Shown piece by piece: positions 36,001-48,000 of a DNA stretch of 64,000 bases. The stretch is from Ophelia neglecta. Its lineage: Eukaryota. Position numbers: made by a program. Position 1 is the first letter of the stretch. Each line of letters opens with the position of its first letter. Where the stretch lies: contig OZ260665.1 of NCBI GenBank assembly GCA_965285935.1, positions 49,786,001-49,850,000 on the forward strand. The letters run 5' to 3'.

Positions 36001-39000
36001 CGAAACGTACATTGACTGTACAAGTCACGACTTAACATGACATTATATGTAATATTATTTTAGGGGTAGGAAAATTGAATTATGAAAAGTATTTTAGGGG
36101 TAGGCAAATTGAAATATTAGAATTAGTTTTAATACCAAAGTAAAATGGCGGCTTAACGCTACGGACAAAGGACGACGCCCTTCCACCCCGCCAGATCACA
36201 TCTCCCTATGAACCTTTAAAATATATACAAGTTTTAACTGCATTCACAGTAAAGTCTTTGCAAAAAATAAATAAAAATTGTCACATTAGAGTAATTTTGT
36301 TTTGAATAAATGCTTTCTGAGTGTGAACACATAAAACCTCATAAAACAATAAGGACAATTTCGTGTAAGTTATATGGCTAGCATCAAATTACATGTCCCA
36401 AATCCATAACTATGCTCTCTTTGGACTGATATCACTGAGGAAACATCAATAGTTTTTCATTGTTCCCTAAAACAAATGACACTGTCCTTGTGCTACAAAA
36501 TAGGTCCCTCCCTTTAGAGAATGCATCACTGAAATGACCTGTTTCAAACAACGCGGCCAGCGTCACCATCTGAAAGGGTATTCGCATTGCAAAGTTAAAT
36601 AAGTGATACTATTTGAAGAGAACATAAAAACAACCAATCATTGCAGTAAAGTGAGAAGAACAGTATAGGTAAATATTTAGTCATTTTCTTATCCAGAAGC
36701 AAAGTTGGGTACTGGCGAGTACAGCGATGACGAAGACACTGGTTATCCCATGGACAAGATGTGCTATTTGGGTAAAGACGTTCCTTCTAAGGCCTTTCAA
36801 TTAATACAAGGGGTATATGCTCCAGACTCCTCGGATGCTAAAGGTAATTGTTCATACATCCTTCCACTTTTTAATAAAGTAATAATTCATAGCGCGTTAA
36901 TATCCATGTAGTATGCAAATATACAAACTGGTTGCCACTACATCCGCTGGGTTGTTTCTAGTTGTGGCCAGCGAGAGAAGACTTCGTCGTCGACGTCAGA
37001 AGTCACATGATGCCGAAAAAGATGAGGATGATGAGACTAGCGCCTTCGACGAGCAGGCATATCTGTCTGGCCAAGTGCCTATTGTCAGTGGGGAGGCCAA
37101 ACCAAGACCTCTAAGAGGTAAGAGAGCATGCCTCCTGTTGTAAATAGCATCTTCAGAATGGATACGTTAATTAAATACAACTCTACACATCTGCCTACGA
37201 AAAAGTGGCAGCGGATTCGCATAAGACAAAGAGAAATCACCAATCAAGTAAAAACCGTTGAATAGGCAGATGCAGGAGGCGTCAGACGCGAGGTACCAAT
37301 TCCTTATTTCAAAATTGTAAATATGTATGTTAAGAAACATTTGGAGGAACTTGCATATTTTGCATCGTATTATTGTCCATCCCTATATACGGCTCGCATG
37401 ACACCTAAAAGACATTTTGCATACGGGCTGTGTGAAAACAACGGGAATTGGTACCCGCGAGACAAAACAAAAAGATTAACCATGAAACGTCCATTAAATT
37501 GGTCGAAATTCACTAGGAACAACCGGCCACAGCCACAGAAAACTTGACCCCACTTTCTGGAGAGCACATAATACAATGAAACACTCGGGTTTTTTTAAAG
37601 TCATATACAAACAACCAATTGCTATCATAATTATAAGCGGTGTTTTAATTTATGCATTCTGTCGATAAAAAAAGGTCCTTACATTATATGTTTTGTATTC
37701 AAACATTATTTATTTTTTCTTTGATGATCACATAGTGTCATTATACATTGCCGCAATGTGCAACAGTTTTTCATGCGGTGATCACATAAAAACGGGTCAG
37801 TGGCTAAGGCAGAACAATTATGAAATATTCCATAAGAGGGAGTATATTACGGATTTAGCTCATTCACAAATTTGAGACTTAGGATGGATGAGTCTAAGAA
37901 ACACAACACAACAGATTGATGTATATAGACATCGCATCCTCAAGAGAATATACAAATCCTCAATTATGTAAAAAAAAAAGTGATGTAATAACTGATAAAT
38001 CAACAAAGTCAACCTATCACAACTGCATCTGAAACATATGATGCTGCTTCAGTATGAATGCATATTGGCTTTAGCCCTAGGACGAGCGGAATATATTTTA
38101 CTTAAAGGCATTGCAGTCTTTTACTGCGAATGTTTTAAAACAAGGGCAACTAGAAACCATACAAGTGCAACCTATAACAGTGACCTTGAATATTTACTGA
38201 CTCTCTTACGTCTGATAAAATCATTTATAGTATAACATATGCATGGATATAGTACTATATGCATCGTGAGGATGGATTTAAGACTAGCATAAAAACAGCA
38301 CCCCACCAGCCACATCCTTTAAAAAGATTAATTTTTAACACAAATCTGCGCAAGTTCTCATGTAACATATAATTAGCTTTAAGTGGAACATGTTCAAGAC
38401 TGCAGTGAGTGCCTTGTAGTAGATAACAAGCTTCATTAGTTATTATTGCGTCTTTGTTTTACAGCAGGCTAATAAGACATAATTAGTTGTTATCTTTTGA
38501 CAGAGGCGCTTATCGATGAACAAGAACACCAGGATGAGGAGGAGGGGGAGGCGGACAAATACAAACAACCTTTCGACGAAAACGAGTATTTGTCTGGGAA
38601 GGTCAGTTTCCTAGGTAATGAACCAAAAGGATTTGACAGAGCAAAAAGTGGTACGTTTAGTTTACTCCTCGCAATTTGAACTATCCTAAATCGTTTAATT
38701 GATTTATTAAACTCGTAATCTGACACTAGCTTATCATTCACTGATACTTCACAGAACCAGATGAAAAGCCCGAGTGGGTAAACAAATCTTCCAAGATGAA
38801 GAACATCGATGAAAACACTTTTCCCAGAAGCAATAGGGAAGGTATAGACTCACTTGTTTCACAGGAAATGTTGACTAGTTAAATGCCCCATTTGAGTTTT
38901 GTGTCGGTACATGATCACTTAGTAGAAACTTAGTTTTCCTCGTTAATAGCCTAAGCATCAAACAAAACCTGCACATAAATATGTCTGCATCAAGCTGTCT

Positions 39001-45000: not shown

Positions 45001-48000
45001 ATGATACACATGTACATGTCATGTTCTGTCAGTAGCGATGTGCATACTAATTATTCAATCAAGAAGAATTTATGCAGGAATAAGCCGTTATGCTGTTGTG
45101 GTATGTTAACATCATGTTTTCCTACCAAAGCGCACTTTTCTAGCCTGACTATGCATAGACATGCACGATATTTTATTTCCACATGCACAGCAAATTGAGA
45201 TGAAGCATTATAACTTCAAATCAACCATCATTGGCTACCGGTAGGCTACCGGACAAATGTCCAGAACGAAAGAATCAAATGAATTTTCACTCCCCGGGGA
45301 TGATCTAGAACCGACCTGGGCCATGACGTTCACAAAATATCCTTCCTGCATTGTCTTCTTCGCACAAGTATTCAATTAAAAGTGGGTCGAAATCGGTACA
45401 AAACAATGAATTGCATCATATTTTATAGAGTGTTGGGTATTTCTGCCGTTTAATGTGTCGTGGTTTTTATTAAATTAATATAAACATGTAAGGCATATTT
45501 TACATTCATAATGTTACAGATTAAAGGCAAATTGTCAAAGCCAAACTTGTAAAATCAATCATGTGAAGATGGCAATGCACAAGTTGGAGGTTGAAACCAG
45601 CATGTTTCAGTGACACGGATGTCATCCTAGAGAGACCAGTTAGCTATCACTCAGTTTAATGTCATGTTTTCAGAAACCACCACTGACGACAACCTTGCCC
45701 CATGGCAGAAAGAAGAACCAGAAGAGAAAAAGGAAGAGGTTTTTGATGAGGACGCCTATCTCAGGGGCAACATACCCCTTTTGCGCCAATCTGTGGAACG
45801 AGACAGTAGCCTTCCACCAAGAGGTACTTTGAATAGGCTCTGTTATTGGCAGACAAGGGCGTAAATAGAAAAATAGTAACAGATTAAAGCTAAAAGCAAC
45901 TGAGCAAGATGTTTTGATAACATTTCCCTTTGCTATCTATCTGTCAGAGCCTCGACGACAGCAAAAGCGCCAGCGGGCGCCTTGGGAACGTGATGACCCG
46001 GATAGGGAGGAAGGCGCATGCTCAGACGCCGAATTTGATGAGAATGCCTTTCTTGCCGGGAGGATTCCTGTTGTCAGAAATAGTGTAGAAAGAGAGACCC
46101 CTCCTGCAACAAACGGTTAGCAATAACTTTAAAGGTTTCCAATTACACGACTTGCCTGGTTTTAAATTATTAAAAGACCGTTTACTGTGAGCTGTATGAA
46201 CACATGCTTATGTAAATAATGCAACGAAGCTGTTAAATAATCTTTATCAGTCCTATAAATTAATTAGTTAAAAGTTGGGTTATAATACAATGTTCCATTT
46301 CTCTATCCAAACTCAATGAGACTAGCCGTTCTCGATAACGATCTGATAAGTATATGCTACAACATTTTTGCAGGTGCAACCCAATTTGCTGTTATACCAT
46401 CGAGGAAGTTCAACATTTTGCGCCGTTCAGTGAGCCGCGATAGATCAATGGGTAAGAAATTCAATGGCATGCTTTTTGCCATGGTGGTTTTGGTCACGAA
46501 ACACGTGTTTCGAAAATCCCCTTCGTAATCTTGTTAATATGGTGGTTGCCTAGAAAAGGTACTTACTTTTTCTGTTATTAGCCCACGAGATTCCCATGCA
46601 CTATCAGTTATGAAGATACAATTATAATTTTGCTTCGTAACGGTACCCAAACTGTTGAATTTTATAACTAGACATTTTAACATGTCTCGTTTTGGGCCGT
46701 GTTAAACATGTTTTTAATTCAAGTGGATCGGGCATATTTAGTACACGTTCAGTGTGGCCTTCAGAAAATGGCTACGAAAAACTTCAAATTGAAAATATCA
46801 ATATATTTAAAATATTTTATTTCAGAATTATTATAATGTAAATGAAAAAAAGGGCAAATCTGATTGTTTGCACACATCTCCTTTACCAGATTAAAAGCAT
46901 GTGAATACCACCCAATTTTAACATTTGAAGCATACAAATATAACGTAAAATAAAACATATCTCCTTGGTATGTGAAATACGCCCACTCTATGCGTTGACG
47001 ATATTTCCATATTATGTATGTTTAAGTTTATGCCATGTTTGGTGAAAGCCCAACGTGATCTAGGGTTATATAAGAAATGTAGTACGATACGAAGATCATT
47101 TGGAATGAAAACTTCGTTTAAAACTCGCCATAAAAACATGGCCCAAGCACGAATTAAGCAGCATACATGAATGCTGCTTAATTTGTGGCAAGTTCACCCT
47201 TGACCTGGAGGTCCTTTGCCCGAAACCTCGACCTTTGGTTTCATTGAAATTCAGGATATGCCACTCTTGAGGAGCCACTCTTGAGGAGGAACCACTCGTA
47301 AGGCGCGACGGTAAACAATGCGGATTAACCAACTTGGTTTATTTGCGGAACCATTATATGGGCAGGCCTACAGCCATGATTCTGTAACTAGCCGTCATAA
47401 GAATCAGTAACACTTACGGCTAGTACTGCTCCCAATAAACCAAAAAAAAGCCCATTGGAGTAAGACAAAGGCTGGTGGGAAAGTAACTACGTGTATTGCA
47501 TATAACATACCATTCACAATGGTTGGAATCAATAACGCTCTAACTCACGTTCAGCCATTTTGCAGGAGGAGGAAAGCAAACTAAAAGATAAAGTTCTAAC
47601 TCAATCCCAATGACATATTTTTACGTGCAACAAAGGTCTTAATAAAGCCATTTAACTGATAAATGAAATGAATAAAATTTAGTCAGTTGGCTTCAGTCAA
47701 ATAAGTATTCAGTGTGTTACAATAATAGAATATTGCATTAGTACCAACCTAAGCGATAAAGAATATTTGGATAATGAAAGTTTCAACTTCAATTAAATTG
47801 GCAGCATTAGGAACGGGCCATTTGTGTAATTTCTTGATCGGTGTTTTGGCTGTGATTGGTACCATTTGGCGAAATCTGAGCATTGGACAACAATAACCAC
47901 GTCATAGAAAAGCAGAGAAAAGAAAGTTATATACCGGAAGCTATGGTCGTTAAAAGTCCATGGTGGAACCACTAGCCTAGTATATACAGTGAAACCTGTC

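What the first reader, a model, noticed from the sequence alone, without database searches (positions are those of the whole stretch)
36962..46451. Unrecognised type-B repeat (FDExAYLxGxIxxxxxS) appears to be type A with its SRSF core deleted
Seen: nine exons share [FY]DExx[YF], six of them continuing LxGx[IV], often after PxW. Aligning DKLSYVGGNIP-SRSFK-LLQ (exon 9) with DEDAYLRGNIP-----LLRQSV (exon 18) suggests a 5-residue deletion. Exon 20 (IP-SRKFN-ILRRSVSRD) looks like the intermediate, compared with KINILRGSVDRE in exon 17. I do not recognise this motif from any named family. Inference: a new linear motif that arose inside this gene and was then amplified.
Basis: partly seen in the sequence, partly recalled or inferred. 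Interest (0 to 1): 0.72.

Follow-up and report, generated by a model that had tools for sequence, protein, structure and literature searches.

The report
Annelid-only repeat in Zasp-like gene
The repeated FDExAYLxGxIP motif is real: it sits in cassette exons of a muscle-scaffold-type (PDZ plus Zasp-motif, no LIM) gene, has been found so far only in annelid worms, and looks like an old offshoot of a widespread repeat in the same gene.

Summary
Between 36962 and 46451 the + strand carries nine B exons plus the 'exon 20' unit. All have AG/GT borders, lengths divisible by three and phase 1-1. Six hold the full FDExAYLxGx[IV] motif, against none in 500 shuffles.

The gene is not human. It is an annelid-type, LIM-less member of the ALP/Enigma-Zasp family, with a PDZ domain, a ZM motif, five type-A exons and two alternative ends, both finishing in TDF.

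Type A is not new. It matches the C-terminal part of Pfam DUF4749 and is repeated in arthropod, mollusc, priapulid and acanthocephalan proteins.

Type B matches no Pfam family and no PDB chain. It was found only in this gene's relatives, and all four organisms named for them are annelids. B units group by position rather than by species, so the amplification is old and not specific to this genome.

A-B kinship is supported modestly. The N-terminal halves match (hhalign P 0.002-0.009; 1 of 2000 shuffles). The tail of the B8-like units (the B units with a basic-x-S-[VI] tail) matches the exon-20 type (2 of 2000). The exact 5-residue deletion remains plausible but unproven.

AlphaFold2 predicts a disordered chain with a one-turn helix at each B motif. 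The likeliest role is a multivalent array of binding motifs whose copy number splicing could vary. The partner is unknown.

The parts
14369..14473 (+). First coding exon of the + gene: start Met and N-terminal half of the PDZ domain (MTETIWLQRPSGDVPWGFRLTGG...)
   Evidence: PWGF search. tblastn with P0048 and P0005 gave 77% identity over 35 aa. The PDZ of those two proteins is recognised by Pfam.
21052..21204 (+). Second half of the PDZ domain. The span is from homology only; splice sites were not set.
   Evidence: tblastn with P0048 (63% over 49 aa) and P0005.
27682..30168 (+). Open frame holding the large P/Q-rich exon (829 aa from stop to stop; exon borders not set)
   Evidence: ORF list. 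Weak low-complexity tblastn match to the Q-rich part of P0005. No Pfam family.
31899..32126 (+). Exon with the ZM (Zasp-like) motif, ...MQYNTPLNMYSEDAVVEAFEGQTG...
   Evidence: Pfam DUF4749 profile positions 2-29, E 7.3e-6, 27.1 bits against a cut-off of 28.7. Splice candidates. Aligned to the ZM region of P0048.
33284..33445 (+). Type-A exon A1 (...DDELKFTGVNRQSTIPSRSFQMVQQMT...)
   Evidence: AG/GT, 162 nt, phase 1-1. tblastn to P0048 and P0005. In P0048 the matching stretch falls inside the DUF4749 hit, profile positions 2-85.
33633..33776 (+). Type-A exon A2 (...IRYVGKNIPSKSFRMLQNLTGGE...). An alternative donor at 33752 is possible.
33901..34095 (+).
34811..34929 (+). Alternative last exon of a short isoform (...GRTVKVVRLRAQNQPQAPDDDGCTDF, then stop)
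   Evidence: It matches the C-terminus of the A-only protein P0048. The phase fits the end of A3.
36697..36843 (+). Type-A exon A4 (...MDKMCYLGKDVPSKAFQLIQG...)
36962..37117 (+). B1: basic stretch followed by FDEQAYLSGQVPIVSGEAKPRPLR
   Evidence: Nearest unit is the first B of Capitella P0001.
38504..38614 (+). B2: ...FDENEYLSGKVSFL
38755..38841 (+). Mini-exon B3': PEW...IDENTF, with no LxGxI tail
   Evidence: The exon part aligns with the other two mini-exons; the flanking introns do not.
39018..39110 (+). Mini-exon B4': PDW...FDESTF, with no tail
39296..39388 (+). Mini-exon B5': PDW...FDESAF, with no tail
39725..39844 (+). B6: ...YDENAYLSGQIGVVSG...
40199..40498 (+). B7: PDW, a basic and acidic spacer, then FNEDAFLAGKINILRGSVDRE
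   Evidence: Groups with the 'NIL' units of the other proteins.
45674..45823 (+).
   Evidence: 63% identity to Capitella P0001 residues 520-557. W, E, L, G and S are invariant in 8 proteins.
45948..46115 (+). B9: RAPWERDD...CSDAEFDENAFLAGRIPVVRNSVERE
46374..46451 (+). 'Exon 20' unit (X20): ...IPSRKFNILRRSVSRDRSM. It has the A-type core and a B8-type tail.
   Evidence: The same unit stands at the same place in P0001-P0004, P0006, P0009 and P0012. Its tail matches the B8-like profile (2 of 2000 shuffles).
48609..48767 (+). Type-A exon A5 (...IDHMAYSGSKIPSKTFLKLKKNVTRQTS...)
   Evidence: Y, G, I, P, S, F and L are invariant in 8 proteins.
49458..49622 (+). Exon for the conserved helical C-terminal region (DPMARIRQK...VDSAIDKMTIDKHDPEKYMEFLKQ...). 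The start is from homology only; the donor is at 49622.
   Evidence: tblastn to P0001 and P0006. Donor candidate. The region is helical in the AlphaFold2 model of P0006.
49745..49777 (+). Last exon of the long isoform: VEAEEEVTDF, then stop
   Evidence: P0001-P0004, P0006 and P0012 have the same ...E[VIS]TDF end.

Best explanation
The interval is the middle of a gene for a LIM-less ALP/Enigma-Zasp-type scaffold protein of an annelid. The gene encodes a PDZ domain, a P/Q-rich linker, a ZM motif, then an array of short linear motifs, each in its own symmetrical phase-1 exon. It has two alternative ends, both finishing in TDF. Type A (Y.G..IPS[RK].F..LQ) is the old repeat, shared with other protostomes, and is the C-terminal sub-motif of Pfam DUF4749. 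Type B ([FY]DE.A[YF]L.G.[IV]P...) is a derived sister of A that keeps A's N-terminal half and lacks the S[RK]xF core. It arose and was multiplied by exon duplication within this gene lineage before the sampled annelid families diverged, and each copy has since been kept at its own position. Inferred mechanism: the B exons form a multivalent row of binding motifs in a disordered chain, and the number of motifs could be set by exon skipping. By analogy with the internal region of ALP and with the ZM-LIM contact in fly Zasp, they would dock a cytoskeletal partner such as the alpha-actinin rod, a LIM domain or actin. The invariant Ser in the R.SV[DE]R[DE] tail of the B8-like units may be a phosphorylation switch. 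Shown here: the motif, the exon structure, its conservation, and its absence from non-annelid relatives in the sets searched. Inferred: common descent of A and B, alternative splicing of the cassettes, the partner, and the phospho-switch.
For: Motif and exons. Gene identity: PWGFRL PDZ exons and the exon map by tblastn; ZM exon against DUF4749; no LIM pattern on the + strand within any mapped exon of this gene; no LIM in any homologue scanned. Conservation: 5 of 5 hits of the exon-profile search carry A and B repeats in the same order. In the sensitive search, 37 of the 42 hits at E<=1e-3 carry B. An 8-protein alignment shows invariant residues inside B8, B9, X20 and A5. Position, not species: the positional label needs 9 changes on the unit tree (least possible 5; shuffled mean 24.3; as low in 0 of 200), while the species label needs 31. 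Range: the four named B-bearing organisms are all Annelida. The B HMM scores >=8 bits in 42 of 47 proteins P0001-P0047 and in 0 of 118 A-bearing proteins P0048-P0165, which include arthropods, Mya arenaria, Priapulus and Pomphorhynchus. A is known: residues 2-18 of P0055 (QSRSFRVLQKITDTD...) align to DUF4749 positions 71-86, and P0056 residues 79-112 to positions 59-86. A-B similarity. Disorder: the AlphaFold2 model of P0006 has mean pLDDT 50.6, with 264 of 477 residues below 50. It shows a 5-residue helix at each of its 6 B motifs, and several of those 10-residue blocks rise to 71-74. Analogy from papers: the ALP internal region is largely unfolded yet binds the alpha-actinin rod (PMC2670261, abstract). 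In Drosophila the ZM domain binds LIM domains, and LIM-less isoforms act as growth blockers (PMC6910826, abstract and passages).
Against: HH-suite rates the A-B match at only 4.6% and 12.6% probability, and just 14-15 columns align. B8-like units against the A5 subtype alone are not significant (349 of 3000), and the remaining B units reach 63 of 3000. Short motifs under the same binding constraint can converge. No transcript data were available, so exon use and skipping are inferred from splice signals and from homologous proteins. No partner was tested. The full-length profile search returned only 6 proteins, all already in hand: five of its own eight input rows plus P0013. The unit tree has 34 columns and one starred branch. 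The ZM hit in the window itself is 1.6 bits under Pfam's cut-off.
Confidence: 0.6

Rival explanations
1. B is unrelated to A by descent. It is an independent linear motif that arose de novo in the disordered linker. Its likeness to A's N-terminal half (aromatic, G, IP) reflects convergence on a similar partner or plain chance.
For: HH-suite probabilities are low, 4.6% and 12.6%. Only 14-15 columns align. B8-like units against A5 are not significant (349 of 3000). The G stands one residue later in B (Y-L-x-G) than in A (Y-x-G).
Against: P values are 0.0087 and 0.0023, and 1 of 2000 column shuffles reaches the observed score. The Y-to-IP spacing is the same in A and B. The X20 unit links an A core to a B8-type tail (2 of 2000). 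A and B sit in adjacent exons of the same phase and similar size in one gene, which is what exon duplication produces. Some annelid A units even read [FY][SN]E..Y (P0001 residue 44, P0009 residue 224).
Confidence: 0.25
2. B is a recent amplification private to this genome, as the reader's wording 'then amplified' suggests.
For: The three mini-exons (38755-39388) lie in tandem about 270 bp apart and resemble each other. The number of mini units differs between proteins: 3 here, 4 in Capitella P0001, 2 in Ridgeia P0007, none in Dimorphilus P0005.
Against: The full B units have counterparts at the same positions in seven other proteins and cluster by position. The introns around the mini-exons no longer align, and Tandem Repeats Finder sees no array there.
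Confidence: 0.05
3. B belongs to an already named, widespread family or motif class that these searches missed.
For: Short motifs are poorly covered by Pfam-type libraries. No ELM-type motif library was available. The Atlas search gave no usable hit, which shows nothing either way.
Against: No Pfam family at E<=1 other than two chance hits. Nothing for the repeat region in 9 homologues. The PDB profile search gave one hit at E 0.29. A HMMER scan of 1.84 billion representatives gave only 42 hits, of which the 5 non-relatives are simple repeats. Full-text searches for the two named gene identifiers and for 'annelid Zasp' or 'Capitella Zasp' found 0 papers.
Confidence: 0.1

Closest known systems
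Pfam DUF4749 / ZM region of ALP-Enigma (PDLIM, LDB3/ZASP, Zasp52) proteins
   Same: The window gene has the PWGFRL-type PDZ and a ZM motif that aligns to DUF4749 positions 2-29. Its type-A repeat corresponds to DUF4749 positions about 59-86. In ALP the region is disordered and functional (PMC2670261, abstract), and it is predicted disordered here.
   Different: DUF4749 holds one copy of the A-type element, while this gene has five A exons plus ten B/X20 units. B itself is not recognised by the DUF4749 model. No LIM domain was found.
LIM-less Zasp proteins of Drosophila (Zasp66, Zasp67) and 'blocking' isoforms
   Same: They share the architecture of PDZ plus ZM without LIM. In flies such proteins bind LIM domains through the ZM region and limit Z-disc growth (PMC6910826, abstract and passages).
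   Different: That paper calls Zasp66/67 insect-specific, and orthology with the annelid gene was not tested here. No B motif was found in the insect proteins (0 of 118 across all non-annelid-set proteins). The fly function is an analogy, not a tested property.
A-repeat proteins of other protostomes (for example 'LIM domain-binding protein 3' of Nymphon striatum P0062, Mya arenaria P0070, tick and horseshoe-crab proteins P0059, P0066, P0069)
   Same: They have a PDZ, a KKPF.Y.P box, ZM, two to four Y.G..IPSRSF..LQ.MTG repeats, and often a ...TDF end. This matches the short isoform predicted from the window (exon 34811-34929).
   Different: None carries B. The long isoform with B units, X20, A5 and the helical C-terminal region was seen only in the annelid set.
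ALP-like motif (AM) of te Velthuis et al. 2007
   Same: [quoted passage not shown]
   Different: It is described as 34 residues long, specific to the vertebrate ALP subfamily, and absent from Enigma members and from eat-1/tungus. Its sequence is in a figure that is not held, so identity with A or B could not be checked and is not claimed.

Membership tests
ALP/Enigma-Zasp family | N-terminal PDZ domain with the PWGFRL signature | tested here: met
   The + strand exons 14369-14473 and 21052-21204 align at 77% and 63% identity to the PDZ of P0048. Pfam calls that region PDZ at E 3.2e-13. The PWGF search is.
ALP/Enigma-Zasp family | ZM motif (N-terminal part of Pfam DUF4749 / SMART ZM) | tested here: inconclusive
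   Window exon 31899-32126 hits DUF4749 positions 2-29 at E 7.3e-6, but its 27.1 bits fall below the curated cut-off of 28.7. The homologous stretch of P0048 scores 66.9 bits.
ALP/Enigma-Zasp family | One or more C-terminal LIM domains | tested here: not met
   A half-LIM pattern matched once on the + strand (18277), in an unannotated short frame outside every mapped exon. It was not followed up and is not taken as a LIM domain. Both predicted isoforms end inside the window without a LIM. Pfam finds no LIM in P0001-P0007, P0009, P0012, P0048 or P0070. The gene is therefore a LIM-less relative and not a PDZ-LIM protein proper.
Pfam DUF4749, C-terminal sub-motif (type A) | Match to profile positions about 59-86 (Q/P-S-R-S-F-R-x-L-Q...) | tested here: inconclusive
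   The window's A exons give no Pfam hit on their own: 0 of the 4 A-exon ORFs tested, and the A5 ORF. The same motif in P0055, P0056, P0059, P0069 and P0062 aligns to positions 56-90. In P0048 the counterpart of A1 lies inside one DUF4749 hit spanning positions 2-85.
Type A repeat (is B a member?) | N-terminal half: hydrophobic-D/E...Y.G..[IV]P | tested here: met
   hhalign aligns 14-15 columns with P 0.0087 and 0.0023. With my own profile score, 1 of 2000 column shuffles reaches the observed value.
Type A repeat (is B a member?) | Core S[RK]xF followed by xxLQ..TG | tested here: not met
   The core is absent from all 76 B units collected. The A HMM scores B-set proteins only at their A and X20 units. 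B is therefore a derived variant and not a type-A member.
Any Pfam-A family (type B) | Score above the gathering threshold | tested here: not met
   The 6 full-B exon ORFs were scanned, and the mini-exon B5' and exon-20 ORFs. Only two sub-threshold chance hits appeared (E 0.12 and 0.2). Nine homologues gave only PDZ and one chance hit.

The most novel reading that the evidence does not exclude
B is a new class of short linear interaction motif that annelids built from the ancient DUF4749 'SRSF' element. Loss of the helical S[RK]xFxxL core (predicted as a helix in A5) switched the binding partner. Multiplication into separately spliceable exons then gave annelid muscle a scaffold whose valency can be tuned and which is regulated by phosphorylation at the invariant R.S site. 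This would be a traceable example of a new binding motif born by a small deletion plus exon duplication.
Probability: 0.2. Interest if true: 0.55.

Novelty: new variant of a known kind. Interest (0 to 1): 0.33.

Why it matters
ALP/Enigma-Zasp proteins organise Z-discs, and mutations in them cause human myopathies, yet the disordered region between PDZ and LIM is the least understood part of these proteins. This locus shows that region evolving as a set of exon-sized linear motifs. There is an ancient one (type A, inside DUF4749) and a lineage-restricted derivative (type B), with a conserved unit that looks intermediate. If the A-to-B change altered partner choice, it would be a clean natural case of motif birth. 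It would also give two related peptides for probing what the DUF4749 C-terminal element binds. As it stands, this is a tidy annotation result for annelid genomes and not a surprise for the field.

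Tried and rejected
I used pattern searches and local tblastn with natural homologues instead.

The 35-aa B core was too short for the word-indexed protein search, so whole-exon rows were used.

A profile of eight full-length homologues returned only 6 proteins, all already in hand: five of its own eight input rows plus P0013. It added nothing on other phyla.

The ESM Atlas gave no usable hit for exon B8.

PDB profile searches found nothing for A and one chance hit (E 0.29) for B.

A shuffle calibration using hhalign itself timed out. 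I replaced it with my own profile-profile Smith-Waterman score and column shuffles.

The idea that A5 is the direct parent of the B8-like units was tested and not supported (349 of 3000).

DNA alignment of the three mini-exons showed no alignable intron sequence, and Tandem Repeats Finder saw no array, so recent tandem duplication was rejected.

Unit-to-unit best-match scoring gave mixed positional assignments. The tree with label shuffles and the whole-protein alignment were clearer.

I considered equating type A with the published ALP-like motif (AM). The paper describes AM as specific to the vertebrate ALP subfamily and its sequence is not held, so I dropped the idea.

A spliced, joined model of the window gene was not built or searched. 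Exons were searched one by one or as separate rows of an alignment.

Full report
WHAT THE WINDOW IS. The window has about 38% G+C and no N. I do not take it for human. Every informative relative of the gene under study comes from a protostome. The only organisms named for proteins that share the B repeat are Capitella teleta, Dimorphilus gyrociliatus, Ridgeia piscesae and Paralvinella palmiformis, and all four are Annelida. Exons were searched one at a time or as separate rows of an alignment.

THE OBSERVATION. The pattern [FY][DN]E..[YF] occurs nine times in the + frames of the 64 kb window. Eight hits lie at 37045-46034, and there are none in the - frames. Inside 36962-46451 there are 8 short and 6 long ([FY][DN]E..[YF]L.G) hits. 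In 500 dinucleotide shuffles the short pattern averaged 0.15 (max 2) and the long pattern never occurred.

Reading the DNA around each hit gives ten units in the interval:
- B1 36962-37117
- B2 38504-38614
- three mini-exons, 38755-38841, 39018-39110 and 39296-39388
- B6 39725-39844
- B7 40199-40498
- B8 45674-45823
- B9 45948-46115
- the 'exon 20' unit, X20, 46374-46451

There are also five type-A exons: A1-A3 at 33284-34095, A4 at 36697-36843 and A5 at 48609-48767. All 15 have AG and GT at their borders, a length divisible by three and the same phase (1-1), so any of them could be skipped without breaking the frame. Nine exons carry the motif start, one of them reading IDENTF. Six have the LxGx[IV] continuation, and six follow a PxW.

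THE GENE. Upstream on the + strand lie:
- a start codon and a PWGFRL-type PDZ domain in two exons, 14369-14473 and 21052-21204
- a large P/Q-rich exon within 27682-30168
- a conserved KKPFAYAPD box
- an exon whose MQYNTPLNMYSEDAV... stretch aligns to positions 2-29 of Pfam DUF4749, the ZM or Zasp-like motif (E 7.3e-6, 1.6 bits below the curated cut-off)

After A3 there is an alternative last exon, 34811-34929, ending ...VKVVRLR...CTDF-stop. It matches the ends of A-only proteins such as P0048. The long form runs on through A4, the B units, X20 and A5. It then has a helical C-terminal region (49458-49622) and a last exon reading VEAEEEVTDF-stop (49745-49777). The half-LIM pattern matched once on the + strand (18277), outside every mapped exon. 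It was not followed up and is not taken as a LIM domain. Pfam finds no LIM domain in any of the homologues scanned. The gene is therefore a LIM-less relative of the ALP/Enigma-Zasp family.

TYPE A IS KNOWN AND WIDESPREAD. A profile of the five A exons found 135 proteins at E<=1, of which 120 were listed. They include myriapod, tick, horseshoe-crab, sea-spider, crustacean and many insect proteins, the bivalve Mya arenaria, Priapulus, and the acanthocephalan Pomphorhynchus. Many carry precomputed PF15936 (DUF4749) and PF00595 (PDZ) domains. Scanning a sample showed that the Q/PSRSF..LQ element itself is what aligns to DUF4749 positions about 59-86. For example, P0055 residues 2-18 align to positions 71-86. 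The window's own A exons are too short to score alone.

TYPE B IS UNNAMED AND, SO FAR, ANNELID-ONLY. None of the B exon ORFs matches Pfam beyond two chance hits at E 0.12-0.2. Nine homologues gave only PDZ. A PDB profile search gave one hit at E 0.29, and the Atlas gave nothing usable.

A HMMER scan of 1.84 billion representative proteins with the B core profile gave 42 hits at E<=1e-3. Of these, 37 carry the motif in the same context. The other five (P0010, P0026, P0028, P0036, P0039) are unrelated simple repeats.

A B HMM rebuilt from 76 units scored at least 8 bits in 42 of the 47 proteins P0001-P0047. It scored that in 0 of the 118 A-bearing proteins P0048-P0165.

Limits apply. The full-length profile search returned only 6 proteins, all already in hand: five of its own eight input rows plus P0013. 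No eukaryotic genome DNA could be searched. Full-text searches for the two named gene identifiers and for 'annelid Zasp' or 'Capitella Zasp' found no paper.

THE AMPLIFICATION IS OLD. In an alignment of eight B-bearing proteins, the units corresponding to B6, B7, B8, B9, X20 and A5 line up column by column, with invariant W, E, L, G, S, F, Y and P residues.

On a maximum-likelihood tree of 38 B units, each labelled only by its order in the protein, the positional label needs 9 changes. The least possible is 5, the shuffled mean is 24.3, and 0 of 200 shuffles are as low. The species label needs 31 changes. The tree has only 34 columns and one strongly supported branch, so it shows clustering and not a resolved history.

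The three mini-exons are the one part that varies in number between proteins. Even so, their introns no longer align.

ARE A AND B RELATED? MAFFT placed a 5-column gap in B opposite S[RK]xFx of A. Profile-profile comparison aligned FDE.AYL.G.IP with .D...Y.G..IP. The P value was 0.0087 with window exons only and 0.0023 with 76 B and 16 A units. HH-suite's probability stays at 4.6-12.6%.

I also used my own profile score with column shuffles, which keep composition and conservation:
- B against A reaches the observed score in 1 of 2000 shuffles.
- The tail of the 26 B units that carry a basic-x-S-[VI] tail (here called B8-like) against the X20 type (ILR.SVDRE against ILRRSVSRE) does so in 2 of 2000.
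- The B8-like units against all A units plus X20, aligned through a 5-column gap, do so in 0 of 2000.

Against that, the B8-like units compared with the A5 subtype alone are not significant (349 of 3000), and the other B units reach 63 of 3000.

My reading is as follows. Common descent of the N-terminal halves is likely, helped by the shared exon phase and the adjacency of the exons. A is the older state, because it alone occurs outside annelids. The single 5-residue deletion is a fair model that the present data cannot prove, because the two halves of B8 resemble two different A subtypes.

HOW IT PROBABLY WORKS. AlphaFold2 on P0006, with eight aligned homologues, predicts a largely disordered chain: mean pLDDT 50.6, with 264 of 477 residues below 50. 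It shows a five-residue helix exactly at each of the six B motifs. The 10-residue blocks holding three of the six B motifs reach mean pLDDT 71-74; the other three stay at 48-59. There is a long helix starting at the S[KR]xF core of A5 and a helical C-terminal region.

That is the signature of short linear motifs in a disordered linker. The A core appears to be helical, and B lacks it.

Two published findings on relatives guide the inference. The unfolded internal region of ALP binds the alpha-actinin rod (PMC2670261, abstract). The fly ZM region binds LIM domains, and LIM-less Zasp proteins cap Z-disc growth (PMC6910826, abstract and passages). A Platynereis zasp is a striated-muscle marker (PMC5167519, passages), but whether it is this gene was not checked.

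I infer a multivalent docking array whose copy number can be set by exon skipping. The invariant Ser in the R.SV[DE]R[DE] tail may be a regulatory site. None of this was tested.

VERDICT. This is a real, conserved motif array that no searched library or paper names, inside a recognisable gene family: a new variant of a known kind. It is useful for annotating annelid genomes and is a candidate case of motif birth, but it is not surprising to a specialist.

Noticed in passing
window 9420-9328 and 2421-2269, minus strand: A second PDZ domain of the same PWGFRL type is encoded on the opposite strand, head-to-head with the gene studied. Its first PDZ exon starts about 5 kb from the other gene's start codon. 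It is probably a paralogue of the same family and runs off the window's start. Whether it carries LIM domains is unknown.
   Followed up: partly
window 34811-34929 and 49745-49777, + strand: Both predicted isoform ends finish in TDF (...CTDF and ...EVTDF), as do many relatives from annelids, ticks, horseshoe crabs and a sea spider. The end has the form of a class-I PDZ-binding tail (recalled rule: S/T-x-hydrophobic at the C-terminus). The protein might therefore bind its own or a neighbour's PDZ domain. This was not tested.
   Followed up: no
window 55875-56495, minus strand: A 207-aa open frame with no stop matches the dual-specificity phosphatase catalytic domain (Pfam DSPc, E 1.4e-32). It appears to be an intronless or single-exon gene downstream of the Zasp-like gene.
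   Followed up: partly
window about 2732-3139: All frames on both strands stay open across a tandem array with a 24-base period. It translates as GPPITQIK, PTNNTNQR and similar, and lies between the two PDZ exons of the minus-strand gene. It is probably an intronic minisatellite.
   Followed up: no
window 40499-45673: The intron between B7 and B8 is 5.2 kb, far longer than its neighbours (0.1-1.4 kb). Capitella P0001 has about 80 poorly conserved residues at the same place, which may be a gene-model artefact there. The content of the window's intron was not examined.
   Followed up: no
P0010, P0026, P0036 (hits): Three unrelated proteins carry many copies of look-alike strings (FPDEQNWLSGQVQVL..., DDLVLAGKIP...). 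They reached E<=1e-3 against the B core profile but not 8 bits against the richer B HMM. They are a reminder that a 31-column profile picks up simple repeats.
   Followed up: partly
window 31657-31787 and homologues: A box KKPF.Y.PD....I..QR.KVR.R upstream of the ZM motif is conserved from annelids to arthropods, Mya and Pomphorhynchus. No Pfam model covers it.
   Followed up: no
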